DNA of 63,973 nt, filler included, from Perkinsus olseni (lineage: Eukaryota): NCBI GenBank assembly GCA_013115125.1. It is 4 parts of 4 records of this genome, joined end to end, with 100 filler letters (N's around TTAATTAATTAA, not from the genome) between each part and the next. Parts side by side here need not be neighbours in the genome. Positions count along the whole stretch, not along the records: positions 17,202 to 34,278 come from JABANN010000657.1; 3 more parts are not named here. The stretch is one strand, 5' to 3'. The position numbers and the translations under genes are program-made. The notes under the pieces are model-generated. The model was not told where the DNA came from. It ran no database searches and was given only the letters and a program-made list of their open reading frames with translations. Shown here piece after piece: positions 17,431-45,938 of the stretch (position 1 is the first letter of the stretch; each line of letters begins with the position of its first letter).

Positions 17431-17787
17431 ACTTACGAGGATATCCAAGTCTGCGCAGCGATAATGTCTTCAAGGTCATATCATGCATTAACGGTACACA
17501 ACTCAATTTATTCACCGCCTGACGCCATCACGATTGATTATCAATTTATGCCGGGGGAGTCTCTTCACTGCGGGCGCTCATCACAAATCTAGTCCGGAAG
17601 TTTTGGCTGCTACTAAAGCTTATCCTGTTAGCTGTGCATGCGCGTAGTCTAGGCTAGCAGTCCATCGGCCAGAACAGAGCATACAATAGACCCCGACTAA
17701 ATGCAAAGCTGTGAGCCACGACTGAGCAACAGCTGGTGCTTAGACACTCGGCGGACCTCTCAAGATCCCCTCTCAATCGTCCGCGTC

Positions 17788-18093: not shown

Positions 18094-18120
18094 CTCCCCT
18101 TCCCCCGGAAAAAGCAGCTG

Positions 18121-19032: not shown

Positions 19033-21055
19033 GGCGACATCCGATCGGCCGCGCCAAATTTGGCGGTTGGTAACTTTCGGCTGGAAGGGGGCGAAGGAGG
19101 TTGTAGCGGCTCAGATGATAAAAGTGCTAGGGAATCCGTAGCGGTCGATTTGCCCGGGGCGATCGAGACCAATGGTAAAGGAGACCCGAACGCGATGGAG
19201 AGATGTAGCGGTTCACTGGAAGACAGAGGAACGGAAGGCGTCGCTAAGTCCAGATCGGTAAGGATGGACGTACCCGAGGCAGCTGGGAAGGAGAGCAAGA
19301 ACAGCCTCGCCAGCAGTGGAGACGAGAAGTGGGTGGAGATGGCCGTCCCTACATGCGTCTCGTGCTTCTGAAATCTGTGATAGATTACAGAGTACTCACG
19401 CTGCGCCGATGGAATGTCTATGTGCTCAACGTGAGAGCCCTGACAGGGGTGGGCTGCCACGCTCTGTGACCGAGAAGTTGCGGCGAGGACCTCCAGACCT
19501 GATCTGCCTCATGATACACGCCAATTGAAAGAGCTCAATGATCAAGAGCTTTCCAGAAGCGCTGACCCAGACGCGCTGCCATGCGTGCAATTATTGCGGA
19601 ACGGCTATTATAGCCGTTCCGCCGTCTCGGTCCATGCTGATCGATTAATAGCCGTGTTCATTGTTTTGCAACGGTTGATGCAACTGTCGGTGTCAACTGG
19701 AAAAGGGTCGAAATTTTGGTTCTTTTAGTCAACACTCGGAGCTTCTGCCCCCTCCATTTCTCCTGCGAGGGCATTTTGGTATGATTACTGGCGCTGCAAC
19801 CGGTACTGGATTGATACCCCTGCTCACGAGCAGATTGTATCTCCTCATCACGGGAACCGATGCACCCAACCAGCAGGAATCTATGTTTTGGTTCTGGACG
19901 AATGGAACTGTGAGTCTGCGGCTGTCTCTACTAGAGACTCTCTAGGGGTCCCGAAAGTTGTCGGAAAGAGTCGAAATGGAGAGAGCGAGAGGAGGCAAGC
20001 ATTTCCCCTCATAGCGACCGTAGTCACGTGGGTGACTCAACTCGCCTACCATTATCGCAGAAGCTATGTGTATTCCGTACTGTGCAACGGCCTGAAAGCC
20101 CGCTGTGGACAAAGTTGATGGTGGTCGACCAGTGATTGTTCTTTTCAGAGGTTAATTTTCGGCGTACTACAGCTCATACTGCTCCTTGATGCGGTTCTTC
20201 TATCGCTGGTTATACGCATTCTAGTGCTCGGCCTCAATGGTGAACTCTTCCCCGAGTGAGCCGGCGCGAAAAATGGGAGATTTGACGACGGTAGCAAAAA
20301 AGAGTCGCCGTGTTCGCCTAAGTTAAAGATTTCTCGTAGAATGGAAAACTATGGATCGTTTGACACCAATGATGCCACCGGAGTTGTTTTTCTCGAGTTT
20401 GCCCACGCTTTGAGAGAAGCTCGAGTAACACGCTTCGAACCTCTCGACTTTTCATCTGACTGGCGTGAGAGAGCCGCCTCTTGCGAGTCACTCGCAAGAG
20501 TGAAGGGTGTCCGATGTCGCAGCCTGCGAGTGAGTCTTTCCTCATTCACAATATGCAACCCCACGACGGCCGGTATGTGTAATCTCCATCCATGATAATC
20601 GCTTGCTCTGCCCCTTCTCAGTGACGATGCCGAAACCGATCACAGTGCGGAGTTGGCGCTTGTAGATGTTTTTGCTGGTATAGACTATACCGTATAGTTG
20701 TTATCCTCATCTTCCACCAGATTTGGCGAATGGTCGGTATTGCTATAGCAGCACGCTTGAAGACGGCTGTTATTTGTCGATGGGGTGTCGATCATATCAG
20801 GTCCCGGGGTTTTTGTACTACTTTACTCCGGCAACAGCGACCGAGTTGATGAAAAGGGCTAATATCATAGAGCAGACGGTAGAGAAGGAAGTGAGAGTTT
20901 TAAAAGGTGAGGAACAGTAACTGTTAGGCAGAGTACTAATCACGCGCGGACTTCGAGCGAATCGGCTTGTTCATAGAATCGTTGGAACATCTTCTTAGTA
21001 TAAGTCTTATACTATAAGAAAGTTGCAACAGTTTCCACTTGCAACTGGCGAGCTT

Positions 21056-21329
21056 AAACTGTACCAGAGGACACTGCACGAGGAGCAACTGTACTGAAAG
21101 CCACCGCACGAGTGGAAACTATACCAGAAGACACTGCACGAGGAGAAACTGTACCAGAGGACACTGCACGAGTGGCAACTGTACCAGAAGACACTGCACG
21201 AGCGGCAACTGTACCAGAAGACACTGCACGAGTGGCAACTGTACCAGAAGACACTGCACGAGGAGCAACTGTACTGAAAGCCACCTCACGAGTGGCAACT
21301 GTACCAGAAGACACTGCACGAGGGGCAAC
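21056..21329. repeat. 30-bp minisatellite, about 9 units (GCAACTGTACCAGAAGACACTGCACGAGTG)
   Basis: Direct tandem repeats; a variant unit (ACTGAAAGCCAC) appears twice. Confidence 0.95.
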
Positions 21330-22690: not shown

Positions 22691-23107
22691 TCTCTTTATT
22701 TAATGAAGTTTATCATGAAGTGAGATCGAGGATTCCAGTCTTGAGTCAACAACGAGTCTGTCGCTAACAGCAAATGCGCGTTTCTCTTTAGCGCCTGCGC
22801 TTGACGAGTAGTGTATAAAAATTTCGTGCCGTAGAAAGACTCTCACCGAGGTGTCTCTCTGTCTCGACCCTTTCTAGCGGAGATGTAGCGTAGAACGGCT
22901 AGCAGTGCCACATACTCCGTCGCACATATTAACAGTACCGCAGATTCCGATATACATATCAACAATGCCACATACCCCGTTGGCATATCACGGTCGTTGT
23001 ACACTACACTATACACTGCATTGCAGTATCGATCTTCCTTGCTTGCAGTCACTGCATCGAGATGATAGATAACCTCGCACTCGCAACAGTTTCAATGGAA
23101 TAGCAGA

Positions 23108-23560
23108 ATGGATATACAGCCGGTTGAAACATCTTCGGTTTATAATGCTCAGGCAGTTCTGGAGTACTTGGAATCACCTTTCGATGCCCCAGCTTGCCAC
23201 AAGTGGCTAGCGCGGGTGTTTAAGGTCAGTGATAATAAAGAAGAGACCACACCGAAGATATTCCAGAAGGGTATCCTTGAGCGATTAGGAACGCCGTTGC
23301 GAGAGTCTGAGGTGATGGTACTGCGGTTAGAAAACTTGTGGGCCGTATCGGTCCGCCTTCAGCAGGTGGCAGAATTCTCTCGAGCTGTGCTCAGGGCTGA
23401 GCCGTCGAGAGCGGATTGTAGTGGAGACGAGACGTAAGTGAGTGATGATGGGGTATCGCCGTTGAAGATTCGGCGACGCCGAGTCGGCGAGCACTCGGTC
23501 TGCATCGTGACGCTTCACCTCGCTCATAGAGTCTATGACATAGACGATGGTGTAACGTCA
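23108..23560 (+). mobile_element. Possible hAT transposase C-terminal (dimerisation) remnant
   Basis: LW...VAEFSRAVLRAEPSRADC...IRRRRV loosely resembles the hATC W..LA..VL..PSSA.CER pattern; interrupted by a stop. Confidence 0.35.
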
Positions 23561-23624
23561 CTGAAATTGGTAGCATCGTGTCTGCGGGCAGGAAACTTTC
23601 CTGAGGAAAGAGTACCCTTCAGAA

Positions 23625-23760
23625 CAGGGTGTACACATCCAGGAAATTTCCGAGCCGTCGGAAATTTCAGCCAGTCCTCAGAGGAAATTTCCTGAAATTT
23701 CCGTTTCCGTTGAAATGGGGAAAAATGTGGCTCCGAATTTCCCCCTTGATTTTCTTGAAA
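23625..23760 (+). mobile_element. hAT-like DNA transposon end A (TIR CAGGGTGTACACAT, subterminal GGAAATTTCC repeats)
   Basis: The TIR is preceded by CTTCAGAA; several GGAAATTTC motifs follow. Confidence 0.7.
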
Positions 23761-24047
23761 CCTCTCTGGCAATGTCTCTGTGACATTGTCACATCGCACT
23801 TGATACATCAGTATTTCAGTCTCCTAATAATACTGATAGACTATTAGTAATAAATTATTACTAATAATCTATTATAGTCCATTAGGTGCGATCAAATCGA
23901 TCATCTGGGCGCGTGCTCAGCACATCCTTTACTTCTATGTTTGAGGGGCTTTCAACCAAAACCATTCCGAAAAATTTTCGGCGAAAACACTAGGATTCCC
24001 TTAGATGCGCATTATGGTGTGAACTACTACCAAACGCGATTCTGAAG

Positions 24048-24190
24048 CAGGGTGTGCACATAGATTTCCACGGCGGAAATTTCATAGAAATTTCCGAACT
24101 CTATTTCGGAAATTTCCGGCGAAGGCGGAAATTTCCAAAAAATATGAAATTCGCGAATGCTCGCTGTTCCAGCCTTATTTCGCAAATTTG
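24048..24190 (+). mobile_element. hAT-like DNA transposon end B (TIR CAGGGTGTGCACAT, subterminal GGAAATTTCC repeats)
   Basis: The TIR is preceded by TTCTGAAG, the reverse complement of the 8 bp before end A. Confidence 0.7.
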
Positions 24191-25354
24191 CCCTCTCCCG
24201 AGTAACGTAGTAACGCCTCCAGCGTGATATGCTAATGCGTCGACGTTTTAAGCCTTCAAACGTGGAAGGTTTGACCTGTTGAATACAGTTTAATAAATTG
24301 AAAAGTATCCGGGCGAGGCCCTCGCCAGCTAGCTCTACTGGCCCAGTAGTATTGGGCAATGAGATGAGCTAGCTCCCATGTGTCTTTATCGGCTCTGTCA
24401 TGGTGGAATCCACCAGGTGGATTGAGAGGTATTCGGTTGATTTGGCATCAGACAACCTCCTGGTTGGTAATAGTTGCAGTAGAGGGGAGCTTGATACAAC
24501 TGGGAGATGGCGGAGGACTATGTATGCAAAATATCGGAGTGTTTGTACCAGTTTGTTCGGTTGAACCATGGAGCCTGTAAAATGATGTCCATTTCGATTC
24601 GTGTTGTCTTTGTTCCGTTATGAAGCATCGGCTGGCGCGGCTAGGCTGTGAGTCATATAAGCCAACTAGGCGCCCTCCGAGCGAGCACTTGGAATTTAGA
24701 GGCCCTTCGAACTTCGAAGGGTCTCTAGATTTGAAGTTCGAAGTCTTTTGGGTGGTGATGACTCGCTTCCCTTCGCGCATTGTTATTAAGATGTTAACAA
24801 ACATCAGTCATGCGGAGAGCTCGTTGAGTTGTATCAGAATCTCGAAGCCATTCGGATGACTCAATTTTCGAACTGGTGCGAAGTCGAGCGCCCCCGAGGT
24901 TGTTCATACTCCTAACACGACTCGACGATGCCACGCGAGAAGCGTCTTGAAAGGATAATGTCTTGAACGATTCCTTTATCCCATCCTGTCCTATCAGGAT
25001 GATCGGATCATTCTGATCCTGATAATATAAATGATACTGCGCATCAGAATGCTGCCCGTCTTAAGCGCATCGGGTCGCGAGCGGCCCATCACATGCGGAT
25101 GTAACAAGAAAAGCGTGGCACATGCGCGATTGGATGCCACAAGTCATGGGGCAAGACAATGAAAAAAGCGAGAATCATGTACGGAAGTATTCAATCGGAT
25201 CTATCCATGATCATCATCCTGCAAATCTGCTTCTGGCGTGAGTACACGCCTCTGGCGTCATCGTCGTGAATGATGCACTCACTAAAAAGTTAACACATGC
25301 CACATGTGACATGCGGGATGAACACCAGCTGATCAGCTATCCAGCTGAAAATTT

Positions 25355-26980
25355 TCAGGAAAGGCCAAGAAAGAATTTGATGGCCCATTCAGCGGGGTCA
25401 AGATATCGAGTTCTAACAACTCGATGGGCTGAACCATGAAAGCTGCAGTTGAACCTCTTGATAGATACGGCTCTATCTTCTCCAGGACACTTCCACTCCT
25501 TCACTCTTAGCCACGGCTTGATCCTTGTTGTATTCGTTACCTTTCTTTCACATCAAAATCTACTCGCCCATCGTCTGATATCTCTGTTGGTCCTCGGGAG
25601 AAGGTCGGAACTGAAGTACTTCTTATATATCTTCCCGTAAATAGAACCATTGTAGGGCACCCACTCATCATCGATGCAGTGTATGCTGGCCACCCTCGGC
25701 ACAGGAGGCTTCGGGCCGAAGGTGGCATTATTGTAGATATCGTCACAGGCCTTGAAAGCCCCACTCAAGCCAGGTTTCAGAGCCAGTACACCATTAACCG
25801 AGACCGCCATTTGAATAACCTTATGGCACAGAAGGGATTCCACCATCATACCACCATTACTGTAGCCATAACCATAGACTGGCAAGTTGTTCTTGTTCTC
25901 CCTCTCTAGGATAATCCTCGTGTAATTAACATCGTCGATATCTTCTCGCTTGACGCAGCAAACGCCTGCATTCCATCCGTTCGCGGATGTCAAAAGGCGT
26001 GAATACCAGCCATACGAAGAACCACACGCATTGATCAGTATCAGGCCGTATTTATCGGCAAGGGCGGTGGTATTAGAGTATTTCTCCCATTCCTCACATG
26101 AACTGCGATAACCATGATACTGTAGGAGTATACCCTTGATCCAGACATCCTTAGGGGGGAAGCGGCGATAATAGGAACGTGTTAGAGTAGTTTTGCCAAA
26201 CCACCCATCAATATCCATTTCGAAGCTGAACTTCTCACTCCCTGGAATGCCCTCCAGTCTGACTTCACCAGCAGGCGCGTCCTCCTTGATCACAATATGT
26301 CTTCCTCCAACCACAGGTAGGCCAACTGAGATTCGGACACTGAACTGGGGAGCGTCGTCTGACTGGTTTTGGTGGGGCTCGTCAATCACGGCGTCGATGG
26401 AGTAATATTGAGGGAAACAAGAAGCTTGTTCATAAAAGTTGCACCTGAGGAGCGGACGGAATGATGGAATTGCGAGGAGCAGATAATATGTGACATAATC
26501 CATGTCAATGAAGTGATGCCTTCGAGAAATCACCTCAGCTGACCTGAGACAGCTCGAACCCGCCTTACCCTTGTCTGAGAAGTCCACCCTATACGAATGA
26601 ACTTCGAAGTAGGTATTGTCGCTAACATTGAGCCTGAAAGGCAGATGATCACCACAGCAGGTGAGTTATCCCACTCACTTCAGTCTCCTGAGCTCGTCCC
26701 TCATTCTGGGAGTGGCTGCGTTCACAAGCATATGATTCAAGAAAGGCGGGATGCATTCCTCACTGATGAGAGCAGAACATCCTCGAGATAGAGGGGAGGC
26801 CGAGAAACTCAATCACCTTAGATACACCGGATCCATGGCACCATTGAGGCATTGTGGAGGAATGGGATACAAGGCGCCGTTGCCGACTCTCCTGAGGGTT
26901 CCGCCAGCATTGTCTACCAGTCCTAGAACCGCTGCCGGGGGAAAGTAGAGCAGAACAATGGGGTGCTGTGATGCAACCAT
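25355..26980 (-). pseudogene. Secreted LpqC/PHB-depolymerase-like alpha/beta-hydrolase, copy 1 (in-frame TGA at 25553-25555)
   Basis: Signal peptide; motifs WNAGVCC, DDVNY, nucleophile GYSNGG, SIHCIDDEWVP and AHRV. The TGA sits where both paralogs have GGA (Gly), and the frame continues after it. Confidence 0.8.
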
Positions 26981-28900
26981 ACTTACGAGGATATCCAAGT
27001 CTGCGATAATGTCTGCAAGGTCAAACCATGCATTACCGGTGCACAGCTCAATTGAATTGAGTCAATTCTTTCAGCGCCTAACGTCATCACGGCTGATTAC
27101 CAATTCATGCCGGGTAAGTCGCGAACTGGACGCACTATGATGCCAATCCCCTGCAGCAGTGGAGATAGTTGAACTTCGCTGCTGTTGTGTATTGTTGGTC
27201 TAGCATCATCGAGGATACGTCCAAGCTCACTCTCTAAGTAAGACTCCTTGGTGCCTCTCTGACAGTGTCCCAGGAACACTGCCGCTAGGTTAGGAAGAAG
27301 ATTACTGTCGTTTGTGCGCTCGCAATGCGTGCGAGCTTATTAGTAATAACAACCGCACTGGTTCACTCACCATCTCCCGGGAGGGGCATGATGGTCGAGT
27401 ATAATGGGGATTATAGCATATTCTATCCATTTCAGTCGAGATTCGCGTGTACGCGCGTTCCTGGTGCCCACGGACCGCCGAGCGGTTCGGTTCGCAAAAT
27501 GATCTCCCAGAGTCTGGACCCTACGTCCTTCCTCAACATAGTCAGACTCCTTGTTTTCGCGTGCTGTAGCTTTGTGTTGGGCTAGCTAGCTATCTAGCCC
27601 AACAGCTAGCCCAACAGCTAGCCCAGGCTAGGCTGTCTAGCTGTCCTCTCTCTGAGTGTGCTCTCCTCTGCTTCTTCTCGGGTGAGGCTTCAGAGTTCGC
27701 CTTGCCCTCGAGCATTTCGTCTAAGGTAGGCACAGACCCAACTGCGCGACCTCCTGTGTGTGAGTAACTCACAGTTTGACTATAAACTCACAGTGAGTTT
27801 ATAGTCAAACGCCGGTTCCGGTTTAGTTATACTCTTGGCGATGGGTTCAGTAACTGAACTTCAGTTGGAGACTCTCTGTAGTCTCGACAATGTCGATCCG
27901 ACATGCAATGCCATCAGACAGATTGTCAAGAAGCATTCCTCAAGGGTACAGACTGTACCGTACAGTCAACAAGATCAGCTTCCTTTCCTCCTGGCAGGAT
28001 CCGAAACCTTCTTTTCAGACTCACGGAGCCCGTATCCGACTCACCTCGAAATTCAGCTTGTGCTTCCACAGGTTTGCATCATCCAAGCATATGTCGCGTG
28101 CAGTGCGAGACTGCTGAACCATCTTTATCATTCATGAATGAGCCTTCTGACTTCCCACTAGTTACAGTCATCGGAAGGCCACGAAGAAGAAAAGTGATTG
28201 CTACAAATATCTCGGGCCGAGATTCGAACTTTTTTGTTCGATAATTCGGTCCGCGACATGTTCAAACCATATAGCAATGTGAGGAGAGCTCATAGTTGAA
28301 ATCTCAGGTCCATATGAGCTCTGGGTAAAAAGTTGTGCCGGTGACACGAGAGGGACTCGTTAGCTTGCGCATGCTGTTACAGCATTGCTGTATCCCACTG
28401 CTGTGACTGTGGGGATTCATGAGATACATGCTATTACCATGTCGTCTCTGAAAATGCATGGTGTGTGATAATGTATATTGCAACGATTGAAAATGTAAAG
28501 CGATTCATTTCCGTTGGCCTTCTAGACCGTCATCCTTGCAACTGCTGGGACTCGACACTACTTGAGAATAAGGTAGAAGACCTGTGTTAAGTGGAAGGTC
28601 TTTTATAGAAAATTAAGTGACTTTATGTTGATTTACGTTGTGAAAAAGTTGATACTACTACGCAGCAATGACAACGGATGCAATCATCGCGTGTCGAAGG
28701 TGTGGGGGGAGTTGCAGATACACCTCGTCGGCTAACGTAGTAATCTGTTGAAAGGAAATGAAATATAATCGGATCTTATCATCATACATCCTGAGCTACT
28801 CATTAGCACCATGGCAATTCTGGACAGGGTAATGGAGCTCTGTTGATATCAGAAGTAGGATCAGCTGATCAGTTTCGCAGCTGAAGTCCTGATAAAAAGA

Positions 28901-30718
28901 TTAGTTCAGACCAAGAAAGAAATCAACGGCCCATCTTGCAGGGTCGAACTCGTCTGTTCTGACAACAGAATGGGCCAAATCGAACCACCCTTTGTCCTTG
29001 CCGCAGTCGAACCTCTTTAATAAAGAGGTTCGAAAAGACGTATACCAGTTCTAAGGACGTCTTCGTCTTCGATGACGTCTTCGTTCTGTCTGATTCGTCG
29101 TATACCAGTAACTGTTCTAAGGACGCGGCAACTAATAAAGAGTCTTTATAGAGACGGCGCGCTCCTCTCCTGGGCACTTCCACTCTTTCAGTGTCATCTC
29201 GTCATTCAACTTAGTCTTGGTAGTCTCCTTCCTCGCGCATCCGAGTCTACCGGCCCAACGTCTGATATCCCTGTTGGTTCTCGGGAACTTGGTCTCAGGC
29301 CAAGGCGAGAGAGGGTTAGGGGGGTTCAGTTCTGAGCCATTGTATGGCACCACTTCATCATCGATGCAGTGTATGCTGACCACTCTTGGCACCGGCGGCT
29401 TCGGTCCGAAGTTAGCGTCATTATAGATATCATCACAGGTGTCGAAACTACCTTGTAGACCAGGCTCCAAAGCAAGTACACCGTTGACGGCCACGGCCCC
29501 TTGAATGACTTTATGACATAAGAGAGATTCCACCATCATACCACCATTACTGTAACCATAGCCATAGACGGGCAAATTGTTCTTGTTTTCTCTTTCAAGT
29601 ATAGTCTTCGTGTACTCAACATCATCAATTCTATGATCGTCAACGCAGCATACCCCCGCGTACCAACCCGAAGTGTAGTACCATCCAAAGTTACTACCAC
29701 AGGCGGTTATCAAAATAAGGCCGTGTTTATCGGTGAAAGTAGACGTCATAGAGTAGTTCTCCCACTTCTCGCATGTGTCACCCCAACCATGGTACTGTAT
29801 GACTCATACCGTATGAGTATACCCTTGATCTCGACGCCCTCAGGAGGGAGGCGGCGATAATAAGAACGTGTTATAGGTTTTTTATCATCCCATTGCCACC
29901 ACGATGCATCAATCTCCACGTTGAAACTGAACTTCTCACTTCCTGGGATATCCTTCGGCTCAGTCTCCTCCTCCTCAGGCTCATCGGGGTCTTCAGCCTG
30001 GAGCATCCTACGTACTGGAGTCTCGTGGGCCATGAGATACCTCCTCGGGGACATCGAGAGAACTTCGACGGTGCGGACAATGAACTGGGGGGAGAGAGCT
30101 GATGGATCTTGCGGAGGCTCAACAATCACGGTATAGATGAGGTAGCCTCCAGGGACTGCACGAAGATGGTTCTCATCAGTTGTACCTGAGGAGCGAGGGG
30201 AGGCACGAGGAGATTATGAGGAACAGCGACACTGAGCTGAGACAACTCGTAACCGCTTTACTTTCGTTTGAGACGGTCACACTGTATAGCTCAACGTTGA
30301 AGAAGCCTCTGTCACTTACGTTCAACCTGGGGGAAAATAATCATCAAGGGGTGTCACACGCCGCGTGTGTTTGTTCCTGAACTCACCCTAGTTTTCTGAG
30401 CTCGTCCCGTATTCTCGGTGTGGCAATGTGCACAATCATTTGGTTCAAGAAGGGCGGCATGCATATCTCGCTGATGAGAACAGAACATCTTCAGGATATC
30501 ATCTCAGATAATTCCCGAAGTCGACGAGCCGAATCACCCAGGGAAATTCGATCTCACCCTCTGAAGGCCGGGCTTCTGAAACCTCCGCGACATTCATCGG
30601 GAAACGGTTGAAGTTTATCATTGCCGACACTCGCAGAAGCTGCTTCATCGTCCATCAGTATCAGAACAGCTGCTGGAGCGTAGCAGAGCAGCAGGAGGGG
30701 GAGTTGCAGGGCAGTCAT
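28901..30718 (-). pseudogene. Secreted LpqC/PHB-depolymerase-like esterase, copy 2, disrupted by two fold-back insertions
   Basis: Same motifs as copy 1. A +14 bp insertion at 29796-29817 shifts the frame; a +129 bp insertion at 29013-29149 brings in stops. Confidence 0.85.
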
Positions 30719-31961
30719 ACTGTTGAAGGTACCCTAAGCCCAAACACTTGATTGCGTTCCGAGCCGCGTAAGGCACACGCTGTAGGCTATAGCCTGTAGC
30801 AAAACACTAGGAGGAAGCAGACACCCGCACAATCATCTCGCTGCACAAGGCTAGTGGAGTCGAGAAACAAGAGAACCCTCGGCTGGTGCGCACTCTAGTG
30901 AGAATTACTATCAATTTGAGTCTCAAAAGTTCCTGCGTATCGTTAGTCCGCGGCAGACGGTAAACTATTTAGCGATTCTCATGGAGAGCTTGTGCGGTGG
31001 AAGTGGTTCTCGATAATCACAAACTCGCTACCTACATCTGGTTCCTTTGTGAGGTTTTGGTAGTCGTGCGTCCGTTCGTCCCTTCACCGCGTGGCACGCA
31101 TGCACTCTAGGGACACCCACCACTATTGCTGCTGCGAACTCACATTGCTCCCTGTGCGCCTTTGTTCGCTGTGCGTCTGTTCGCCCCAGCAATTGCGTGC
31201 ATTCCTTGTCATAGGATCGAACGTACTGTGAGTAGGAAGAGCTCAAAGTAGTCTCCAGTAGGGCTGACTACTTTCGGGCCCTGGGATCCGCACCATCTGC
31301 TGCAGACGATCTGTCCTATGATCGATGAGCGTGTAGCTCAATATGTCGATCCCGTTACAGCGCACTATCAGCTCGTATTCACGAAGACAACGCTTGTGTG
31401 ACGACCGATGCGCTCCAACCAGCGAGACCCGTTCGGCGACCGAGAAGCTCACCACGCATTCAAATCGCTCTTCGAAGCGGTACGGTTCGTTAATGTATTT
31501 TCAGAGATAGCATGAAAAAAAGAAGTACTTCCATTCCGCTGGCCTCCGGAATGTTCACCGACCTGAATGTTGTGACCCAACACTACTCGAAGACATCCTG
31601 GAATACCGGCGTTGAGTCAACGGCACTTCATATAAACTTATGTGACTAAGTCACAGTGACTATCTCAACGAACTTGGTAATACTACGCCGCGCAGACAAC
31701 GGATGCAATCATGCGTGTCGAAGAGGGTAGGGGAAATTGCATTCACGCTTTGTGTGCCAACGTAGGAAAGACGGGGAAATGTTCTACAAAGAAATGCGGA
31801 AATAGAAAGATCGAGTCCGCTGATCAGACTCCGATTATCGTCATACATCCCGAACTTGTCATTAACGCCATGGCCATTATGGCAGGGTAATGAAGTTCTG
31901 CTGGAATGAGGAGAAGTAGAAGCAGCTGACCAGTTCTGCAGCTGAAGGGCTAATGGAAAGA

Positions 31962-33639
31962 TTAGTCAAGGTGAAGAAAGAAATCAACAGCCCATTCGGC
32001 CGGGTCGAACTCGTCGGTTCTGACGACAGAATGGGCGTACTCGAGCCACCCTTTGTCCTTGCCACAGTTGGACCTCTTGATAGAGACGGCGCGCTGCCCT
32101 CCTGGACAGTTCCACTCCTTCAGTGATGTCCCGTTGAACGGAGCTAGAGTAGTGTCCTTCTCCGCGCATCCGAATCTACGGGCCCAACGTCTGATATCTC
32201 TGTTGGTTCTTGGGAAAAGAGTGGCGGTGCCCCAAATAGTATCATCTTTGCTCAAGACTGAACCCTTGTAGGGAACGACCTCATCATCGATGCAGTGTAC
32301 ACTGGCCACCCTTGGCACTGAAGGCTTTGGACCCAAGGAAGCATTATTATAGAGATTATCACACGTCTTGAAGCTCCCTTGTAGACCAGGATTCAAAGCC
32401 AATACAGCATTGACGGCGACGGCTCCTTGAATGACTTTATGGCACAAAAGGGATTCCAACATCATACCACCATTACTGTAACCATAACCATAGACAGGCA
32501 GATTTTTTTGTTCTCCCTCTCGAGGATAATCTCCGTGTACTCCACATCGTCGATGTCTTGTCTCTGAATGCAGCAGGTACCCGCATTCCATCCGTTCACC
32601 GAGTAGAGAGCCCTTGAATGCCATCCGTAATTACTCCCGCAGGCGGTTATCAAAATCAGGCCGTGTTCATCGGTAAAAGTAGACGTCATAGAGTACTCCT
32701 CCCACGCCTCGCATGAGCCACCCCAACCGTGGTACTGTATGAGTATCCCCTTGATCTCGACGCCCTCAGGAGGCATGTGGCGATAATAAGAACGTGTTAG
32801 AGTAGTTTTGCCCCAAAGGACCCCATCAATCTGTGTTGTGAAGCTGAACTTCTCACTTTCTGGGGCCACAGTGGTCTTCGTTTGGAGCATCCTACGGAAT
32901 ATTGGAGACTCGTGGGACATAAGATGTCCCCTTGGGGTCAACGAGACGACCTCAACAGTGCGGACAATGAACTGAGGGAGGTCAGCTGATTGATCTTGGT
33001 GGAGTTCCTCAATCACGGTATGAATGAGGTAGTCTTCCGGGCCAACACGGAGCTGATTCTCATAAGTCGCACCTGGGGAAGACGAGGAAATGTTGAGGAG
33101 ATAAAGAGAAACAGCGGCGCCGGGCCAGCGCCTGAGTTAGCTCATACCCGTCTTACCCTCTTCGGAGAAAGTGACATGGTATAGCTCAACCAGGAAGTAG
33201 GTTTTGTCACTGACATCTTGCCTGAGTAACAGATTGGTATCCCAACGGGCGGTCTCTCTAACTCACTCTAGTCTCCTCAGCTCGTCCCTGATTGTCGATG
33301 TGGCCGCTTGCACGATCATATGGTTCAAGAAGGGCGGCATGCATATCTCACTGATGAGAGCAAAACATCCTCGGGATATCGTGATATAGAAGAATCGAGG
33401 CGCCCTCTCTTGTAGGCGCTTTCCCATGGAACGATGAACCCCGCCCAGGGAAGTTCGAATTCACCCTCGATTCGAGGGCCTCAAAAGCCCGAGCTTCTGA
33501 AACCACCGAGGCATTCTTCGGGAATGGGTTGCAGGTTGTCGTTGTCGTTGCCGGCACTCTCAGGAGCTAAGCCACCGTCCACCATTATCAGCGCAGGAGC
33601 GGAGCAGAGCAGGAGAACGAGCTGCTGGAAGGTGGCCAT
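31962..33639 (-). CDS. Secreted LpqC/PHB-depolymerase-like esterase, copy 3 (1-nt shift in a homopolymer at 32503-32509, possibly sequencing error)
   Basis: Signal peptide MATFQQLVLLLCSAPALIM; motifs WNAGTCC, GYSNGG, HCIDDEVVP and AHSV. Confidence 0.8.
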
Positions 33640-34278
33640 GGTGTGAAGGTATCCAGGGTCTACGCAGATCATAGCCTCTTACCATACGATTCTTACTCCG
33701 CGTAAGATAGGTGCTATATACGGAAATGTCAGAAGGAAGCAGACAGCATAAAAGTTGCCGACATCTGGTCTCTACGTACGGCTTTGCTAGTTGTCCGTTT
33801 GTCCCTTCACTACAGGCGCTCATCCCACATCTAGTCCGGGAGTTTTTGCTGCTACTAAAGGCTTTAGTCATGCACAACTGAACAGGATAAGCTTTAGTCT
33901 AAAGCTTATCCTGTTCAGTTGTGCATGCGTGTAAGCTAGGCTAGCAGTCAATCGACCAGAATAGAGCATACAATAGACGCTCTCTCATATCCCTCGACTA
34001 GTATTCAAGGCTGTGAGCCACGACTGAGCAACAGCTGGTGCTTAGACACTCGGTGGACCTCCCAAGATCCCCTCTTAATCGTCCGCGTGTTATGACTCGT
34101 GCGAGTGTCCCGTACTAGCGCAACACCAACGTGCTGCCAGTCAATGATATCAGTATGCAGCGGAACTGATAACGGCCTCACGAGGGGGAATATGCGTACA
34201 CGTGCTGATAGCTGAAATCGATCATCATCAAATCGATCACCGCGCCAGTCGACAGCGACAACCGCGCCAGTCAACAGC

Positions 34279-34378
34279 NNNNNNNNNNNNNNNNNNNNNN
34301 NNNNNNNNNNNNNNNNNNNNNNTTAATTAATTAANNNNNNNNNNNNNNNNNNNNNNNNNNNNNNNNNNNNNNNNNNNN
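34279..34378. other. Artificial contig linker
   Basis: N44-TTAATTAATTAA-N44. Confidence 0.98.
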
Positions 34379-38500: not shown

Positions 38501-41500
38501 GGTCGTCAGGCACTCACATTGTGGGGAGGGGCTTCGGGGACGGCGAAGTCGACGGAGGATGGTATTGAGGCCAAGGCTGTGACCATGGAACTGTAACAGG
38601 CGTACTTAGCTATGAGTATTGCAGATCTTTGCGGGTGGTTGGGTTAGGTACCAGCCTGACCCAGGATTCCCAATGACGCTGCCGCGGCCAGAGATGTCGA
38701 ATTGCGAGATGTCCATGACGGGGCTATCGGCAACAATACAGTTTGACAGTGTTACTCTGATGGGAGCGAAATGCAAGGATATCGATTATGATGGTATACC
38801 GGATGTTATCGACTACGGCTACGAGGTAGTGGTTGAAGGCTGCTGCTACTGCTGGCTGATGATGTTGTCCGTGCAGGTCACTTCACATGTGTCGGCGAAG
38901 ACATGCTTTGCGGATGCCTCGTTCCAGTATCTTGAGGGAGCTACTTGCGCATTCATCCAGAAAGATCAGATAGAGGTGACTGCTTTGAAACTTTTAGGGG
39001 GTGTTGATGGTACCTTCATCATCAGATTATCCTCGATAAGAGCAGTACCCTAACCTTTGGACATACGCTGTGTATTCGCCCGGATTTTGTGTGTCGAACG
39101 CAGAACGACCAATGGAGTGCGTACAGCACTGGATGCTGCAAGGTAGTGAAGTTGGGCCATACTGGTAACTACTCCTCCCCTTTCGAATGCCGCTTGGTGT
39201 CCCTTCAACTGCCTGTCACCAGCGTTGTGGGGAGCATGGGTATGGTTCGGGATGCCAGGTACAAGTGCCATCGGATTTGGTGCCGCCAAAGCCTAATCTT
39301 CGGGCGGATCCGTCGCTTGTTGTGGACGTATGTGCGGACGTCACTCTGGACTTCGGCGATACGCAGTTCTGCGGGTAAGTTCGGAAGTTCTTAAAGGCCT
39401 AGGTGATTTCGCGGCGCGCGGTTTTTCAGACGGAAGTGTACATACGTGTGGAAGCTAGACTCTGTGACAGCGCTCTCCGCCGTAGCCGCAGGGGAGACGT
39501 CGGGTGACATGGCAGTCGATGATACGACTACCGCCGAGGCCGTGGATCGCATCAACGAGGTCCTGGCGGAAGCCAACCTCAACAACGCCTTCTCGGTCAC
39601 GTTACACGCGGACATACTGGCTAAGGCTTCCTACCATCTATTCGAGGTTGACGTGACGAGTGCGTGGGCGCTGACGACCAAGGAGAAGTTCACAGTTCAC
39701 AAGCTGGCGGATTCGGCTCCCACGGTGACCATCGTTGGTGAACTTAAGATCGGGGTGTATCGTAATCGAGAGTACTTCCTCAACGCGGTTGGCAAGGCGT
39801 CGCAGTGCGCATCGGCTGAGACCGTGCTCGGCTATCGGTGGGCCTTCTCCAATTGCTCAGTGGACTTGGCCAATGTTGATACCATACAGAACCAGAATCG
39901 TCTCAGGGTGCCTGCGGGTACGCATAAATGCCCAGACTCGGTTCTCTGGTATGAAAATGATTTTGATGCGGCTGCGTGCGAGGTGTGCAGTGTCGTTGTG
40001 GAAGTTTTCCTGGTGAACAACCCGAGCAAGAAGTCTCATCAGACGATGAGCGTCTACCTGTTGAAGTCGGATTTGGTCCCGAAGTGTCACAATCCTGACT
40101 TCAGCAAGATACAGAAGGGCCTTACGCTGTATGTTAACTGTGGTAACACAGAGGATCCTGACGATATCCACTCCGGCGTTTTCAAAGGCAATTTCAAGTG
40201 GAAGTGCAGAAGCGGGTCGACTCTGTTGCCGTGCTTTGGCGAGACGCCGGAGTTCAGCGAGGGTATCAAAACCTGCGTCCAGGACTACACAGTTGATCGC
40301 TATGTCGGCGATGGCGGCGTGCTTTACCCACAAATTGCTTTCGAGGATCGTCAAATGTTCTGCCGTGTCGGTCGAGGGACTGTTGCCATCAATACGGCGC
40401 TGATGGATACCGGGAACTACACGTTCGGTATGGAGGTCACGCACTTCGACAACAAACGGTCTACTATGAAGGAGGTCGATGTGGAATTGACGAGTTATGA
40501 GCTGCCGAAGATCAACTTAGAGTTGATAAGTGCACACTACGAGAGGTTCCCGGTTGGCAAGGCGTTGAAGGTTCAAGGGACGCACAATTTGGACCCTGAG
40601 AGGTATCCAGATGTTACGTATTCGTGGTCACTGTTGGAAAGGCAACGGAACCTGGATTACGATCCTGACCAAGCTGAGCAGTACGAAGAGCAGGGTCTCA
40701 CTTATCCGATACCAGAGTTCGCTTATGTTAAGGTCGACCTCTTGTCGCAGTGCACCAACGAGGGTACTGCCAAGTGGACCTCGACGAGCCCGACAATTAC
40801 TATTGGACCGGACTGTCTGAAGCTGAAAACTCAGTATACTCTTCGTCTCACTGTCATATGGACTACTGAGGTCGATGGTACTGATATGACCTTGGATTCC
40901 TTCGCGGACATCAGGGTGGCTACGGCCAGTGGACCACCGACGAAGGGTAAGTTCATCGTGAAGGTTAGAGGCGAAGACGGCAGTGAGACGGCAGAGACAG
41001 GCTGCGAGTTGGAGAGGATATTCAGTGCGGAGGAGTGGATTTCTGAGGATACGCCGCTGAGGTTCCGTTTTGGCTATATAGTTGATGACAGTCATGCCCT
41101 AGACGCAGTGAACGACGAATTCCTGATACAGGACGCTGTGAAGTACTGGTTGACGGATGCGCCGCAACCAGTGAGAACTCAGACAGGCTTGGTACAGTGT
41201 GGGAAGGAGGAGTTTGACTACAGGCGAATAGTATTCGTTTATATCGAGAACTCTGCGGGGGAGCATGTGTACAAGTTCCAGGAGATCGTGGCGACTCCTC
41301 CTGAAAATCCTGCGGCAGCCGCGGCTGCTATTCTCGAGGAGGCAAGCGGCCAGGCGGCCTCCAATCCAGAGAATACCATCACTCTCTACATGGCGGCTTT
41401 GGGGATCCTCTCGGAGGCGAGCGAGGAGGAGAAGACTGACACGACTGACAAGATTCTAGACTCGGTTTCTGCCACCGAGTGCATTTCGCCCGAGTGCGGT

Positions 41501-44500
41501 GAGAGGCGAATGGTATTCCTCAACAACGTGGCGAAATCTGTGACTATGAGCGATAAACTACAGGATGTGTTGCTGGTGTCGATGGAGGACAACATAGACC
41601 GCATCGAGGAGTCCGCAGCAGAGCTTACTGACCAGCAGAGCTTCACGCTATTCGAAGGTATCAGCGCTATCCTCGTCGGGCCGTTGTTCAACCTCCTGGG
41701 CGGGTTCGGTCTTCGTCCCCGTCGACTAACACCACATGCCACCGTTGCACTGAAACCTGTACTTCGGCCCGTGTATCCTGATGGATATGATGATACTGTG
41801 GGGGAGGTTGTTGATCCAATCGGCTATGAGGAGGGCACTTCGAGGCGCCTTAGCGGGCGCCATCATCCGAGCCCAGGCCTGGGTGAGAGTGTTGTATCGA
41901 ACTGCCGTGAACCGTTCTGTGACAGAGTTGGTCTGAAGTGCATGAAGGGCTTCGGCGACTGGGGAGACCGCCACCATTCGCTGGTGTGCTGTTCCGAGCA
42001 TAACCCGACGACCAGCTGTTACGAGCCGCCTTGTTGGTTCTATGGGCGTGAGTGCAGCGCGGCAACATACGCAGTCCACTCCGTTATGGCGGAGGAGGCT
42101 AAGTCCGTGGTGAGAGTGGGAGCTGGGTCTCGCAGGCGAACCTCGGAAGAAGGGCGCGTCCGTTGGTGGGACGACTGGGTGGATAGATTTGCTCGCGAAC
42201 CATTGGACAACATCCCCCTCGGATTTGATAGTTCTACGCATAAGAGTGGGTGGCAAACGCTGAGGGAGGGAAAGCACAATGGTAGACGGCGTATGGCAGC
42301 TGTGGATGGGGATTCCCACAGGCGTAGGCTGGTTGATGTCAAGGTGTCGCTTCGACAGAATCTCTCCCAGACGTATCAGCAAGCACTCCTCTCAGTGGCC
42401 GAGGGCGAGAGGACGGCTTTTGAGGCAACGAGGGCGTTGTACTTAGAAGCCGCGAGGGTTGAAGAGGCTAGGAGAGCAGAGGATGTTAAGTGGGAGATGT
42501 ATGTTAGTACTCTGAGTCCAGAGCTGCAAACGGCGATGCGCGAGAGGAAGCAGGAGCAAGCAGACTCTAAGGAGCGGGTGGCCTTCCAGGAACGACGAAA
42601 CACAAGTCAAATACTGACCAGGATCGAGGTCATTCGAGACACCATTGTCAAGCGTTTGATCAACCAGCTGGTCGCCAACGAGGACCCCAAGGTCTTTGAC
42701 GTCTCGGCCTTTACTATATACATCGGGAAGAGTACTGACCTTTCAGCGGTGCATCCTTCCTTTTCGATGCCGAGCAAGTATGTGGTACCCTCTAACTCCC
42801 CAGACAATCCGACGCCTGACAACCCCATCACGGGCTTCTCGTTCGAGTACGTTGAGTATAAGATGGACCCTAGGAGCTGGTCCATCAGCAGCCCTGTGAG
42901 CAGTGAGCGTGCTATGGTCACGCTACTGGTCATGAAAGCCAACCCGGACCTTACACTCACCACAAGCATTGATGACGACCCTATACGTGTCTTCTCCGAT
43001 AGGGACCTTTATTCTGAGGCTCTGTGTACGTACTGGGACCGTTTTGCCCCCAACACGGCTGGAGGTTCATGGACTAGCCAGGGTAACCTGAACGATGGGC
43101 AAGGATGCCTTGTCACCCGGGCTGGTGACATCGGCCTTTTCGTGGACGGCGATGTTCCTGAGTTCGGCACGATGGCAGTCGCTGCGGACCTTCCCTTCTT
43201 GCAGAGGGCGCCGCCCGCCGATCGGTTCTTCGTGCTCAGCATATTGGGCTTCACCTCGGTGCTCGTGATAATGCTCTCTTTCTGGGGTTACAAGTTCGAC
43301 GAGAGTATGCGTGATGACCAAAGGCGTGGAAGAGCAGCTCTTACCCCGTACCATCTGGACGGCGACGGTATCTCCTCCCCGCTGACGATCGTCGACCCCA
43401 TCGCTTATGACTACGTGTCTAGCGAGAAGGGCAAGCGGGAGAAGTTCCTACTTATCACATTTTGGAACGTACTTAGACATGAGAGCGTCGTGCTGGCTCC
43501 TTTCTACTACTCGGAGAGCTTCACGCGACCTCAGCGTCTTTTGTGCGCCTTGACAATGCTGTCCGGCATCATGGGTGTCACCTCTCTGATATACGGCACG
43601 CCTAACACCCTGGCCTCCTCTACTCAGTTCGTGGCGACGGGCATACTGTCGGCCTTGGTGGTGTATCCTGCCTACTGTGCGGTGTACCTGATGTTCTCGA
43701 TGCGACCTACACCCTATCGGCGACGCATCATCAAGAAGAAGACCGCCAATGACGACCGGCATAGGATTCATGATGCTATCAGACTGCAAGAGGCTGAGTC
43801 ATCAGGCATACCGAGGTCGGTCATCCAGGGAGGCGTCCCGGCTTTGGGTTCTATCACCTCACCCTACAAACCACTGGTGGGCGGCCTACCTGCCCTTCCG
43901 CCAATTCCAAGCCATGCTCCTCCAAGTTTGCCGGTGGCCGGGCTGGCTATAGAGGAAGGGAAACCAGCAGCGCCCCCACCTAGGATGACTGAGACTCCAC
44001 AGCCGCCACCGCAAGCACTTTTGCCGCCCATTTATTTCGGAGGCGCTCCTGGTGGTCCGAAGGCTCCAGCTGCTCTCCCGCCAAATCTGGCGAGCCGGGC
44101 GCTGCCGCCCCCTGCTCCCCCTCCGCTTTGGACGGGTGGAGGCCCACCATCAGAAAGCGGTTCTGGATCGGTACGCAGTGCTGCGCTGCCCCCTCCGCCT
44201 AAGATGACGCCACCGCAAAGACCACCATCCTCGGGAGTGACAGCTCCACCACCACTTCCTGGCGGGTTGCCGAGCGGGGCCTCTACGCCAAGGGCGATGA
44301 CTCCTCCCCCACCCCCACCACCAGTGAAGGTACCTCCGCCCACGGTAGGGGCTCCTGGGGGATCACCGAGGTCAGGAGATGCAGTCAGTTTCGGCGCTCC
44401 TTCTAGCGGGAGGAGTTCGCCACCCCTCACACCGAAAAGAGCTAGCGAGATTACTCCCGCTGCCCCGGTTGCTTCAGCTGGAGGGAAATCGCCGCCTCCG

Positions 44501-45938
44501 CCTCCGGTCAAGCGAGGAGGCTCTAGTGCCGCTCCGACGCCGCCCCGTGCTGTTGGGACACCCCCTCCACCTCCAGCTAGGCCTGGTAGCAGTACCCCTC
44601 CTGTATTAGAGCCCGAGCCCAAGCACGGTATGGCACCTCCCCCTCCCCCGCCGCCGCCCCGCGCTATGGACGACATGGCTTTGGCAATACCACACCCGCC
44701 GACGCCTCCACTCCCACCGGTCATGCCAGTTGGGCCATTGGCGATGGTCCCGATTGGTTATCCACCGGCCGTAGGTTTCGGCCCCCCTCCTAAGCCCCCT
44801 GTGTCGGCGATGGCTGCCCCTCCGGCTCCCCCTGCACCACCTACTGAGGACGTGAGCTCCTTCATCCGTCGGGTAAAGCTTGTCTATTTGGACAGAGTCC
44901 AACAAGAACATCAGAAACAGTCGATGAGGGAACAACGAGATCTCTTCAAGCCCATCCCGGAATGGGTCTACACCGCCGTCCTCGCATTGCCGTACCTAGC
45001 GTGCATAGCGTGGTGCATGGCCTGCTTCTTCATAGTCCTCACTTACTCCCTCAAGTTCAGCGAGGAGACGGAGGCGTTGTGGTACAAGGCAGTCATCGTG
45101 GCCGTGGCGGCATCAGTGTTCGTGTTGGATGTGGTCCGGTCATTAGTGAATATGATAGTCGAAGTGCGTAAGTTCGAGATCCGTCGCCGGAACAAGAAAG
45201 GAGAGTTCAATCAGAGAAAGGTTCGACCTATGGGTCGTGACGAGGAGGAGCATCTACCGGCCTTCCTTCGCACCAAGCCGAAGAGGTCCCAGCCCAAAAC
45301 TGCCCCCTTCCCGCCGTCCGTGGAGCGTCGTCGCCTCAGTGGCATGCGTACTGAAGATGGCATGCAGTTGCCAGTTGGGCCCCCACTGCCGGGGATCAAG
45401 GACGGCACTCCAGCCTGGGGTACGCCGTCCCCTAGCTCCCCGGCATCTACTGCACGTGATGTACCGCGGTTGCCTCCTATTGCTGCGCCACCCCTGTCGC
45501 GGAGCTCCTCCATCGTCGGCTCTGGTCGAGGCAGTCTTCCGAGATCTGTATCACCAGCAGGGGCTCGAACCCCACCATCGGTCATCGGATCCGCCCATGG
45601 TGTGAGTCGAGCGCTGCCGAGAGGCTCCTTCGTAGCACCCCCGCCACTGCCGGGCCAGCTGGCATCAGCTCGATCGTCGAGAGCGAGTTCTCCGAGGAGC
45701 CGCGTACCGACGCCGCCTTTGTCAGCGCGGTCGGCTCACAGCGGGAGTAGAGTTCCGACGCCAAATCTCTCGGACAGGATTAGAATGGGTAGGCCGCAGT
45801 GTATCGGTTTTTTGGCTCGTTGAATCATTAGTTTTTTCAGAGGCCGATCGATCTACTACTCCTCCTCCTCCACCACCGAGATCCAGATCGAACTCGCGTC
45901 AGATTAGGTCGCCAAGCTCTCGGGCTTCTCCAAGGTGA
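35529..45938 (+). CDS. Giant polycystin-1/PKDREJ-like membrane protein (WSC-like exon, REJ-like region, degenerate GPS, ~5 TM, polyproline loop). The 5' end and linkage of the upstream exons are uncertain.
   Basis: WSC-like SIGCYK...YTPRECWVMC; a single ~6.36-kb exon (39430-45788) with REJ-like motifs (YRWAFS, YSWSLL, WISEDTPLRFRFGY); GPS-like CTYWD...W..QG; PKD1-type FTRPQRLLCAL; last exon 45841-45938. Confidence 0.72.

What the first reader, a model, noticed from the sequence alone, without database searches (positions are those of the whole stretch)
33854..33927. A scar whose empty allele is present in the window
The paralogous upstream region near 17590-17660 reads GCTACTAAAGCTTATCCTG. 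Here 44 bp are inserted at the 8-mer ACTAAAGC: ACTAAAG-g-CTTTAGT, then a 29-bp inverted copy of the right flank, apex t, then CTAAAGC. Both apex bases obey the complement rule. This shows the palindromes are derived insertions and that arms can reach 29 nt.
Basis: seen in the sequence. Interest (0 to 1): 0.75.

Follow-up and report, generated by a model that had tools for sequence, protein, structure and literature searches.

The report
Transposon excision scar with long palindrome
The 44 extra bases are most likely the repair scar left when a cut-and-paste jumping gene left this spot in the shellfish parasite Perkinsus olseni; it is a known kind of footprint, but unusually long, and a sister copy of the region still shows the untouched site.

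Summary
Copy A has ACTAAAGC once (17612-17619). Copy B (33854-33905) reads ACTAAAG + 8 nt reverse complement of the 8-mer + 30 nt reverse complement of 8-mer plus right flank + CTAAAGC, a net gain of 44 bp.

This is the layout expected of a hairpin-type excision footprint. It has an 8-bp target duplication, and each inner base is replaced by its complement. Palindromic tracts of 8 and 30 nt are joined without loss.

The same layout with other 8-mers recurs 22 more times in the window (21 stereotyped 22-bp scars and one other long one). It is specific to a duplication length of 8: 23 hits, against 1 hit each for 7 and 9, and none in 10 shuffles.

A divergent strain lacks exactly the 14 extra bases of one 22-bp scar. 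Paralogous repeat copies lack two others.

Perfect arms beside 10.5% A/B divergence (P about 0.02) support a derived insertion. No clean outgroup at this site was obtained.

No transposon or DNA transposase is in the window, so the superfamily (hAT-like favoured, MULE possible) is inferred.

This scan had already reported the same scar type on other pieces of this genome. I reached the reading before seeing those notes.

The parts
33854..33860 (+). First copy of the 8-bp target duplication ACTAAAGC, lacking its last base (t1-t7)
33861..33868 (+). Left palindromic tract, 8 nt, equal to the reverse complement of ACTAAAGC. The centre base g at 33861 is the complement of the lost C. With 33854-33860 it forms a 15-nt palindrome with 7-nt arms.
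   Evidence: (arm 7 at centre 33861)
33869..33898 (+). Right palindromic tract, 30 nt, equal to the reverse complement of ACTAAAGC plus 22 nt of the right flank. The centre base t at 33898 is the complement of the lost A.
   Evidence: I10; arm 29 at centre 33898
33899..33905 (+). Second copy of the target duplication, lacking its first base (t2-t8, CTAAAGC)
33906..33927 (+). Right flank that was the template of the long arm. It carries the B-type variants (TTCAGTTG where copy A has TTAGCTG).
17612..17619 (+). Unscarred (empty) target site ACTAAAGC in the paralogous upstream region, copy A
17559..17786 (+). Copy A of the repeated upstream region. It lies upstream of a minus-strand esterase-like gene fragment at 17213-17527.
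33801..34088 (+). Copy B of the repeated upstream region, upstream of the minus-strand gene at 31965-33136. Spliced contigs of that gene stop at 33679, about 175 bp short of the scar.
   Evidence: (records 15 and 31)
27759..27810 (+). Second long scar with the same layout: target TGTGAGTT, left tract 8 nt, right tract 19 nt (18-nt arms). Paralogous repeat copies lack it.
   Evidence: (loose ends at 27793: 12 contigs in X1, 26 in X7)
20677..20698 (+). A stereotyped 22-bp scar (target GGTATAGT). Its 14 extra bases are absent in strain X7.
   Evidence: (table 4: 14 left out at 20678, depth 111.1 of 111.1)

Best explanation
The 44 bp are an excision footprint of a cut-and-paste DNA transposon that makes 8-bp target-site duplications and leaves its flanks as hairpins. 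The hAT superfamily is the best fit.

Inferred history:
1. An element inserted at ACTAAAGC in copy B after the A/B duplication, which duplicated the 8-mer.
2. On excision, each flank was sealed into a hairpin with a 1-nt offset, so the hairpin tip is the complement of the duplication base that touched the element (g for C on the left, t for A on the right).
3. A host nuclease nicked the left hairpin 8 nt from its tip and the right hairpin 30 nt from its tip.
4. The unfolded strands were copied and the two ends joined with no base lost and no microhomology.

The usual outcome in this genome is a nick at 8 nt on both sides. The two 8-nt tracts are then complementary and anneal, giving the stereotyped 22-bp scar t1-7 + revcomp(t1-8) + t2-8. 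This site is the rarer case in which one hairpin was opened much deeper.

Shown here: the anatomy, the empty paralogue, the specificity of the layout for 8 bp, and strain and paralogue polymorphism of sister scars. Inferred: the transposon, the hairpins, the nuclease and the joining route.
For: (1) Every base of the insert is accounted for by the model, with no free parameter beyond the two nick distances.

(2) A scan of the window for this layout (t1..t(k-1), two adjoining palindromic tracts with complement centres, t2..tk) was run for duplication lengths k. At centre distance 5 or more it gave 23 hits for k=8 (21 at distance 7, one at 26, one at 37). It gave 1 hit for k=7, 1 for k=9, and 0 for k=6 and k=10-13. 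Ten dinucleotide shuffles gave 0 hits at distance 5 or more.

(3) Perfect palindromes with arms of 8 or more have a 1-nt centre in 21 cases, against 1 with no centre and 2 with a 2-nt centre. A 1-nt hairpin offset predicts this.

(4) Scars form a decay series. Matches to the 22-bp layout number 21 exact, 13 with 1 mismatch and 19 with 2 mismatches. Twenty shuffles summed gave 0, 0 and 1.

(5) Empty alleles of sister scars. Strain X7 lacks exactly 14 bases at 20678. Contigs of paralogous repeat copies (12 in X1, 26 in X7) abut 27793 with a consensus that restores a single TGTGAGTT (checked). Four X7 contigs read a single G[C/T]TCAGTT where the window has the 22-bp scar at 27845-27866.

(6) The arms are perfect although A and B differ by 10.5%.

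Against: No transposon has been seen at this or any other scar site.
- No element with terminal inverted repeats and an 8-bp duplication is in the window. In one search the single hit lies in conserved coding sequence. One search gave 2 hits, against 1, 0 and 0 in offset controls.
- No DNA-transposase domain was found in 8 + 128 translated ORFs, out of 153 ORFs of 90 aa or more. The 128 come from that list; 25 of its ORFs, including those overlapping the 2138-aa gene, were not in that call, and most of the 8 ORFs are among the 153. The only mobile-element hit was a retroelement integrase.
- I could not test whether P. olseni has hAT elements, because the whole genome is not held. The papers I read report Dada (6-7 bp) and Merlin relics (8-9 bp) for P. 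marinus.

The footprint spectrum is unlike that of plants or Candida. The short classical footprints (centre distance 1 or 2) occur 0 times, against about 0.9 and 0.6 expected by chance. The 29-nt arm exceeds the yeast maximum of 20 nt quoted in PMC5873905.

The hAT target preference nTnnnnAn (recalled) is only weakly visible. By eye, T is at position 2 in 10 of 23 targets and A at position 7 in 8 of 23.

The left tract is exactly 8 nt in both long scars, which random nicking does not explain.

The X7 contig with an unscarred site fits copy A on its left side, so no unambiguous orthologue polarises this site.
Confidence: 0.7

Rival explanations
1. The scar has the same origin, but the element belongs to another superfamily that forms flank hairpins or makes duplications of about 8 bp. 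A Mutator-like element (MULE) is the main candidate, with Merlin or an undescribed family as alternatives.
For: MULE Muta1 has 8- or 9-bp duplications and forms hairpins on the flanking DNA (PMC5499845, passages). Merlin relics with 8-9 bp duplications are reported in P. marinus (PMC8101967). No hAT element was shown here.
Against: The duplication length is sharply 8: 23 hits, against 1 for 9 and 0 for 10, whereas MULEs typically give 8-10 bp. Muta1 excision in yeast was more than 90% precise, and its hairpin was sized 43+43 nt with no reported offset. The centre-complement signature is the one described for hAT footprints. No hairpin mechanism for Merlin appears in the papers read.
Confidence: 0.15
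2. No transposon was involved. The inverted copies arose by template switching or fold-back synthesis during replication or repair of a spontaneous break.
For: The insert consists only of reverse-complement copies of adjacent sequence, as in template-switch mutations (recalled from the literature, not read here). No element has been seen at any site.
Against: Two separate inverted copies would be needed, plus a duplication of exactly 8 bp minus one base on each side. The same 8-bp geometry appears at 23 unrelated sequences, with no pre-existing inverted repeat to prime a switch. The specificity for k=8 points to enzyme-set spacing.
Confidence: 0.07
3. The polarity is reversed. The palindrome is older than the A/B duplication, and copy A lost it by slippage between the two CTAAAG direct repeats that flank it.
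For: The scar is bracketed by 6-bp direct repeats (33855-33860 and 33899-33904), and deletion between them would restore ACTAAAGC exactly. Long palindromes are deletion-prone (general knowledge). No clean outgroup was obtained.
Against: All 36 arm pairs are perfect despite 10.5% A/B divergence, P about 0.02 under neutrality. Sister scars are absent from many paralogues and from another strain. The origin of the palindrome would still need the same mechanism.
Confidence: 0.05
4. The palindrome is a selected functional hairpin, for example a regulatory site in the upstream region of the esterase-like gene.
For: It lies about 175 bp upstream of the last position reached by spliced contigs of the gene. 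It would form a very stable hairpin or cruciform.
Against: The paralogue does without it. The 23 scars share geometry but not sequence, and they decay by mutation. Its content is fully explained by the local flank.
Confidence: 0.02

Closest known systems
Ac/Ds (hAT superfamily) excision footprints in plants, Saccharomyces cerevisiae and Candida albicans (PMC5873905, passages read; Tam3 and Hermes recalled)
   Same: An 8-bp target duplication is retained on both sides. Palindromic insertions are centred on the complement of the base that touched the element. The hairpin, nick and end-joining logic is the same.
   Different: The tracts here are 8 and 30 nt (arms 7 and 29). The longest arm quoted for yeast is 20 nt, and for Candida 3 nt. 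No bases are lost. The common product in this genome is one fixed 22-bp scar rather than a mixed spectrum. No element or transposase has been identified.
P nucleotides at V(D)J coding joints (RAG hairpins opened by Artemis; recalled, and mentioned in PMC5499845)
   Same: Opening a covalently closed hairpin away from its tip turns flank sequence into a palindromic addition at the joint.
   Different: V(D)J P tracts are short, there is no target duplication, and there is no complemented centre base from a 1-nt offset (recalled).
MULE (Muta1) excision through flank hairpins (PMC5499845, passages read)
   Same: Hairpin on the flanking DNA, and 8- or 9-bp duplications.
   Different: Muta1 excision in yeast is mostly precise. 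No centre-complement footprint is described in the passages read. Duplication length varies, whereas here it is strictly 8.
Template-switch mutations that create perfect inverted repeats
   Same: New sequence is a reverse-complement copy of neighbouring sequence.
   Different: Here there are two copies from the two sides of one 8-bp duplicated site, with fixed geometry at many unrelated sequences.

Membership tests
hAT-type excision footprint | Remains of an 8-bp target-site duplication on both sides of the footprint | tested here: met
   ACTAAAG ... CTAAAGC in copy B, against a single ACTAAAGC in copy A. The layout is specific for 8 bp across the window: 23 hits against 1 for 7 and 1 for 9.
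hAT-type excision footprint | [quoted passage not shown] | tested here: met
   Centre g at 33861 replaces C and centre t at 33898 replaces A, with perfect arms of 7 and 29 nt. The rule is as worded in PMC5873905.
hAT-type excision footprint | An unscarred homologous site exists | tested here: met
   Paralogue at 17612-17619. An X7 contig has an unscarred site and a B-like right flank, but its locus assignment is ambiguous.
hAT-type excision footprint | A hAT element (short terminal inverted repeats, transposase with a hAT dimerisation domain) at the site in some allele, or resident in the genome | tested here: not met
   None in the window. The genome-wide test was not possible because no genome is held. 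This lowers the claim 'made by a hAT element', not the claim 'works like a hAT footprint'.
hAT-type excision footprint | Target preference nTnnnnAn (recalled) | tested here: inconclusive
   By eye from the 23 targets printed: T at position 2 in 10 of 23, A at position 7 in 8 of 23.
MULE excision footprint | Target duplication of 8-10 bp, typically 9 | tested here: inconclusive
   8 bp in 23 scars, 9 bp in 1, 10 bp in 0. Muta1 itself has 8 or 9 bp.
Template-switch mutation | One contiguous inverted copy of nearby sequence, without a target duplication | tested here: not met
   There are two inverted copies (8 nt and 30 nt) that both start from the same 8-mer, and the 8-mer is duplicated.

The most novel reading that the evidence does not exclude
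Perkinsus olseni opens transposase-made flank hairpins at a fixed distance of 8 nt, the edge of the target duplication, possibly while the ends are still held by the transposase complex. Almost every excision therefore writes the same 22-bp scar. Rare events such as this one (8 + 30 nt) and 27759-27810 (8 + 19 nt) are single-end misfires, showing that the two ends are processed independently and can be joined without microhomology. The genome would then be a countable archive of transposition and hairpin repair that is still being written, since scars differ between strains, by an element not yet described in this lineage.
Probability: 0.3. Interest if true: 0.65.

Novelty: new member of a known kind. 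Interest (0 to 1): 0.45.

Why it matters
The site pairs a scar with its own untouched paralogue in one contig, so every inserted base can be traced to its template. That makes it a clean natural example of hairpin-type donor-site repair, with a palindromic tract longer than the 20-nt maximum quoted for yeast.

With the roughly 50 exact and decayed scars in 64 kb, it suggests heavy, recent cut-and-paste transposon traffic in Perkinsus and a nearly deterministic repair outcome. My searches of the held papers found no report of this in Perkinsus.

Practical consequences:
- The scars are strain-polymorphic 14-44 bp indels, usable as markers.
- They are a source of long perfect palindromes in promoters.
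- They can be mistaken for functional hairpins or for assembly errors.

Tried and rejected
- Whole-genome search for further paralogues: no genome is held.
- BLAST of both copies against the window: only the two copies.
- Search for resident elements with an 8-bp duplication and terminal inverted repeats. In one search the one hit, 28838-32205, has its right end inside the conserved coding motif of the esterase-like gene and was rejected. The relaxed search gave 2 hits for 8 bp against 1, 0 and 0 in offset controls, so nothing above background.
- Pfam on 8 + 128 ORFs: no DNA transposase.
- Exact scan of metagenome contigs with a 30-mer of the conserved core: 0 matches.
- Runs X9 and X10 gave no cover of 33680-34086, so they say nothing about the scar. 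Their contigs look spliced.
- X7 record 23 stops at 33858, and I could not see what follows.
- Papers not held: the Hermes structure paper and Yu et al. 2004. The 1-nt offset of the first hAT nick is therefore recalled, not read.
- The earlier notes of this scan name no element responsible for the scars.

Full report
WHAT THE WINDOW IS

The 63,973 bases are four contigs joined by linkers of 44 N, TTAATTAATTAA and 44 N. The N runs are at 17102-17201, 34279-34378 and 51425-51524. No whole genome is held.

A 249-aa nucleoside phosphorylase ORF (47042-47788) is 100% identical to a Perkinsus olseni protein and 89% identical to one from P. marinus. The DNA is therefore from P. olseni or a very close relative.

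Both sites of the finding lie in the second contig (17202-34278). That contig carries a tandem family of minus-strand esterase-like genes.

THE OBSERVATION

It is right in every detail.
- Copy A has ACTAAAGC once, at 17612-17619.
- Copy B reads ACTAAAG (33854-33860), g, CTTTAGT (33861-33868), a 29-nt inverted copy of the right flank (33869-33897), t (33898), and then CTAAAGC followed by the flank itself (33899-33927).
- The net gain is 44 bp.

The two copies are an upstream region of about 230-290 bp. They differ at 24 of 228 aligned positions, with 16 further gap columns. The window holds no third copy.

The 59-nt palindrome is perfect. As single-stranded DNA it folds at -34.9 kcal/mol, against -9.6 +/- 2.2 for 200 shuffles.

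A 1260-nt contig assembled separately from run X1 spans 32780-34039 without a single difference. X1 may be the source sample, so this rules out an artefact of this assembly but not of the sample.

READING THE ANATOMY

Call the 8-mer t1..t8. Copy B is then:
- t1-7
- the reverse complement of t1-8 (8 nt)
- the reverse complement of t1-8 plus 22 flank bases (30 nt)
- t2-8.

So the 8-mer is duplicated. Each inner copy has lost the base nearest the centre. In its place stands the complement of that base, followed by an inverted copy of the flank.

This is the layout of a hairpin-type transposon excision footprint:
1. Insertion duplicates 8 bp.
2. Excision seals each flank into a hairpin whose tip is the complement of the base that touched the element.
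3. Nicking the hairpin away from its tip unfolds a palindromic tract.
4. The two ends are joined.

Only two numbers are free, the nick distances (8 and 30 nt). I wrote this reading down before looking at earlier notes of the scan.

[quoted passage not shown] The same source quotes a maximal arm of 20 nt in yeast (PMC5873905, passages). hAT elements predominantly make 8-bp duplications (PMC5499845, passages). That the first hAT nick lies one base into the flank is recalled, because the papers that show it are not held.

IS THE LAYOUT MORE THAN A STORY FITTED TO ONE SITE?

I scanned the window for the same layout with any sequence and any duplication length k.

At a distance of 5 or more between the two centres, the counts were:
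- k=8: 23 sites (21 at distance 7, one at 26, and this one at 37)
- k=7: 1 site
- k=9: 1 site
- k=6 and k=10-13: 0 sites.

Ten dinucleotide-preserving shuffles gave none at distance 5 or more.

The 21 sites at distance 7 are a stereotyped 22-bp scar, t1-7 + revcomp(t1-8) + t2-8. That is the product expected when both hairpins are opened 8 nt from the tip, so that the two 8-nt tracts, which are complementary, anneal.

When mismatches are allowed, the 22-bp layout is matched by 21 sites exactly, 13 with one mismatch and 19 with two. Twenty shuffles summed gave 0, 0 and 1. So there is a decay series, about 50 scars in 64 kb.

Perfect palindromes with arms of 8 or more have a 1-nt centre in 21 cases, no centre in 1 case and a 2-nt centre in 2 cases. 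A 1-nt offset predicts this.

None of the exact scars lies in the 2138-aa ORF. Counts per contig are 5, 12, 2 and 2, plus the two long scars in the second contig.

POLARITY

Three lines of evidence say the scars are derived.

First, at this site all 36 arm pairs are perfect although the surrounding repeat has diverged by 10.5%. If the palindromes predated the A/B split, about 3.8 arm-breaking substitutions would be expected, P(0) about 0.02. This assumes neutrality and equal rates. Both arms carry the B-type flank.

Second, sister scars have empty alleles.
- The divergent strain X7 lacks exactly 14 bases at 20678. That turns the 22-bp scar at 20677-20698 back into a single GGTATAGT.
- Twelve contigs in X1 and 26 in X7, from paralogous copies of a repeat, align up to 27793. 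They continue leftward with a consensus ending ...GTGTGT, which restores a single TGTGAGTT where the window has the other long scar (checked).
- Four X7 contigs read a single G[C/T]TCAGTT where the window has the 22-bp scar at 27845-27866.

Third, X7 holds a contig at single-copy depth that joins 17612 to 33899. It has an unscarred ACTAAAGC followed by the B-type right flank.

The third line is not clean. The left 26 or more letters of that contig fit copy A better. The X7 contig that follows locus B from 33006 stops at 33858. The tables are truncated. The reverse polarity stays possible in principle: deletion between the two CTAAAG repeats would restore the empty site exactly. I give it about 5%.

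WHAT IS NOT SHOWN

No transposon has been seen.
- The window has no element with an 8-bp duplication and terminal inverted repeats. The one hit ends in conserved coding sequence. The relaxed search is at background.
- No DNA-transposase domain appears in the ORFs scanned. The only mobile-element hit is a retroelement integrase at 18124-19110.
- In the papers I could search, P. marinus is credited with Dada elements (6-7 bp duplications, PMC3706591) and Merlin relics (8-9 bp, PMC8101967). I found no report of hAT elements or of these scars in Perkinsus.
MULEs also make flank hairpins and 8-9 bp duplications, although Muta1 excises precisely in more than 90% of yeast events.

The superfamily is therefore inferred. 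hAT-like is favoured by the strict 8 bp and the complement centres, and MULE is the main alternative.

The spectrum also differs from known hosts:
- No short classical footprints occur: 0 at centre distance 1 or 2, against about 0.9 and 0.6 expected by chance.
- There is one dominant 22-bp product.
- In both long scars the short tract is exactly 8 nt, with no microhomology at the joint.

These differences suggest that hairpins here are normally opened at the edge of the duplication. This site would record one end opened much deeper.

TRANSPOSON-FREE ALTERNATIVES

A transposon-free origin by template switching or fold-back repair would need two separate inverted copies, plus an exact duplication of 8 bp minus one base on each side. 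It would need this at 23 unrelated sequences, with nothing to prime the switch. I give it about 7%.

A selected functional hairpin is unlikely. The paralogue lacks it, the scars share geometry but not sequence, and they decay.

CONTEXT OF THE SITE

Contigs of X9 and X10 show joints with CT..AC ends, which are GT..AG on the minus strand. Examples are 33070->33155 and 33220->33266. These contigs end at 33661-33679. The neighbouring minus-strand gene is therefore spliced, and as far as these contigs go its transcript ends about 175 bp short of the scar. The scar sits in upstream, probably promoter, DNA.

VERDICT

The feature is a member of a known kind, a hairpin-type excision footprint. It is notable for its 29-nt arm, for having its empty paralogue in the same contig, and for belonging to an unusually dense and uniform population of scars.

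This scan has already reported that population on other pieces of the same genome. Those are notes of the same kind as this one, not independent evidence. My own counts above are what the verdict rests on.

Noticed in passing
17102-17201, 34279-34378, 51425-51524: The window is four separate contigs joined by artificial linkers (44 N, TTAATTAATTAA, 44 N). The longest 'palindromes' reported by the repeat finder are these linkers.
   Followed up: yes
17213-17527, 25556-26665, 29135-29803, 31965-33136 (minus strand): A tandem family of esterase-like genes sharing the motif NLPVYGYGYSNGGMM. Pfam gives only a weak Abhydrolase_2 hit (E 0.007). Contigs of X9 and X10 show small GT..AG introns (skips of 45, 84 and 153 nt).
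   Followed up: partly
27793 to about 28350: High-copy repeat family. The depth in the bin 27462-28031 is 504 in X1 and 1327 in X7, against roughly 40-90 for single-copy contigs, and many contigs start to align at 27793. The window's copy carries four scars (27759-27810, 27845-27866, 27945-27966, 28371-28392).
   Followed up: partly
about 34087-34278: The A/B similarity ends at 34088. To the right, depth in X1 rises to 828 in the bin 33732-34278, and contigs of X9 and X10 begin at 34100 and 34087. This is a repeated or separately transcribed element abutting copy B.
   Followed up: no
18124-19110 (minus strand), with boundaries at 18033 and 18088: Retroelement integrase fragment (rve, E 2e-12). 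Contigs from three runs leave the window sequence at 18088 with the same 30-letter continuation, which marks a repeat boundary.
   Followed up: no
about 33975-34000 versus 17692-17702: A second indel of about 15 bp between copies B and A. It is not palindromic and does not have the scar layout.
   Followed up: no
39407-45820 (+): A 2138-aa open frame with a REJ domain (E 6e-22) and a long proline-rich tail. No scars lie inside it.
   Followed up: no
51525-51592: A (TGT)n microsatellite at the very start of the fourth contig.
   Followed up: no
3920-3991 and 4219-4290 (minus strand): Two tRNA-Gln(CTG) genes 300 bp apart. tRNA-Ser genes lie at 1876-1957 and 50746-50827.
   Followed up: no
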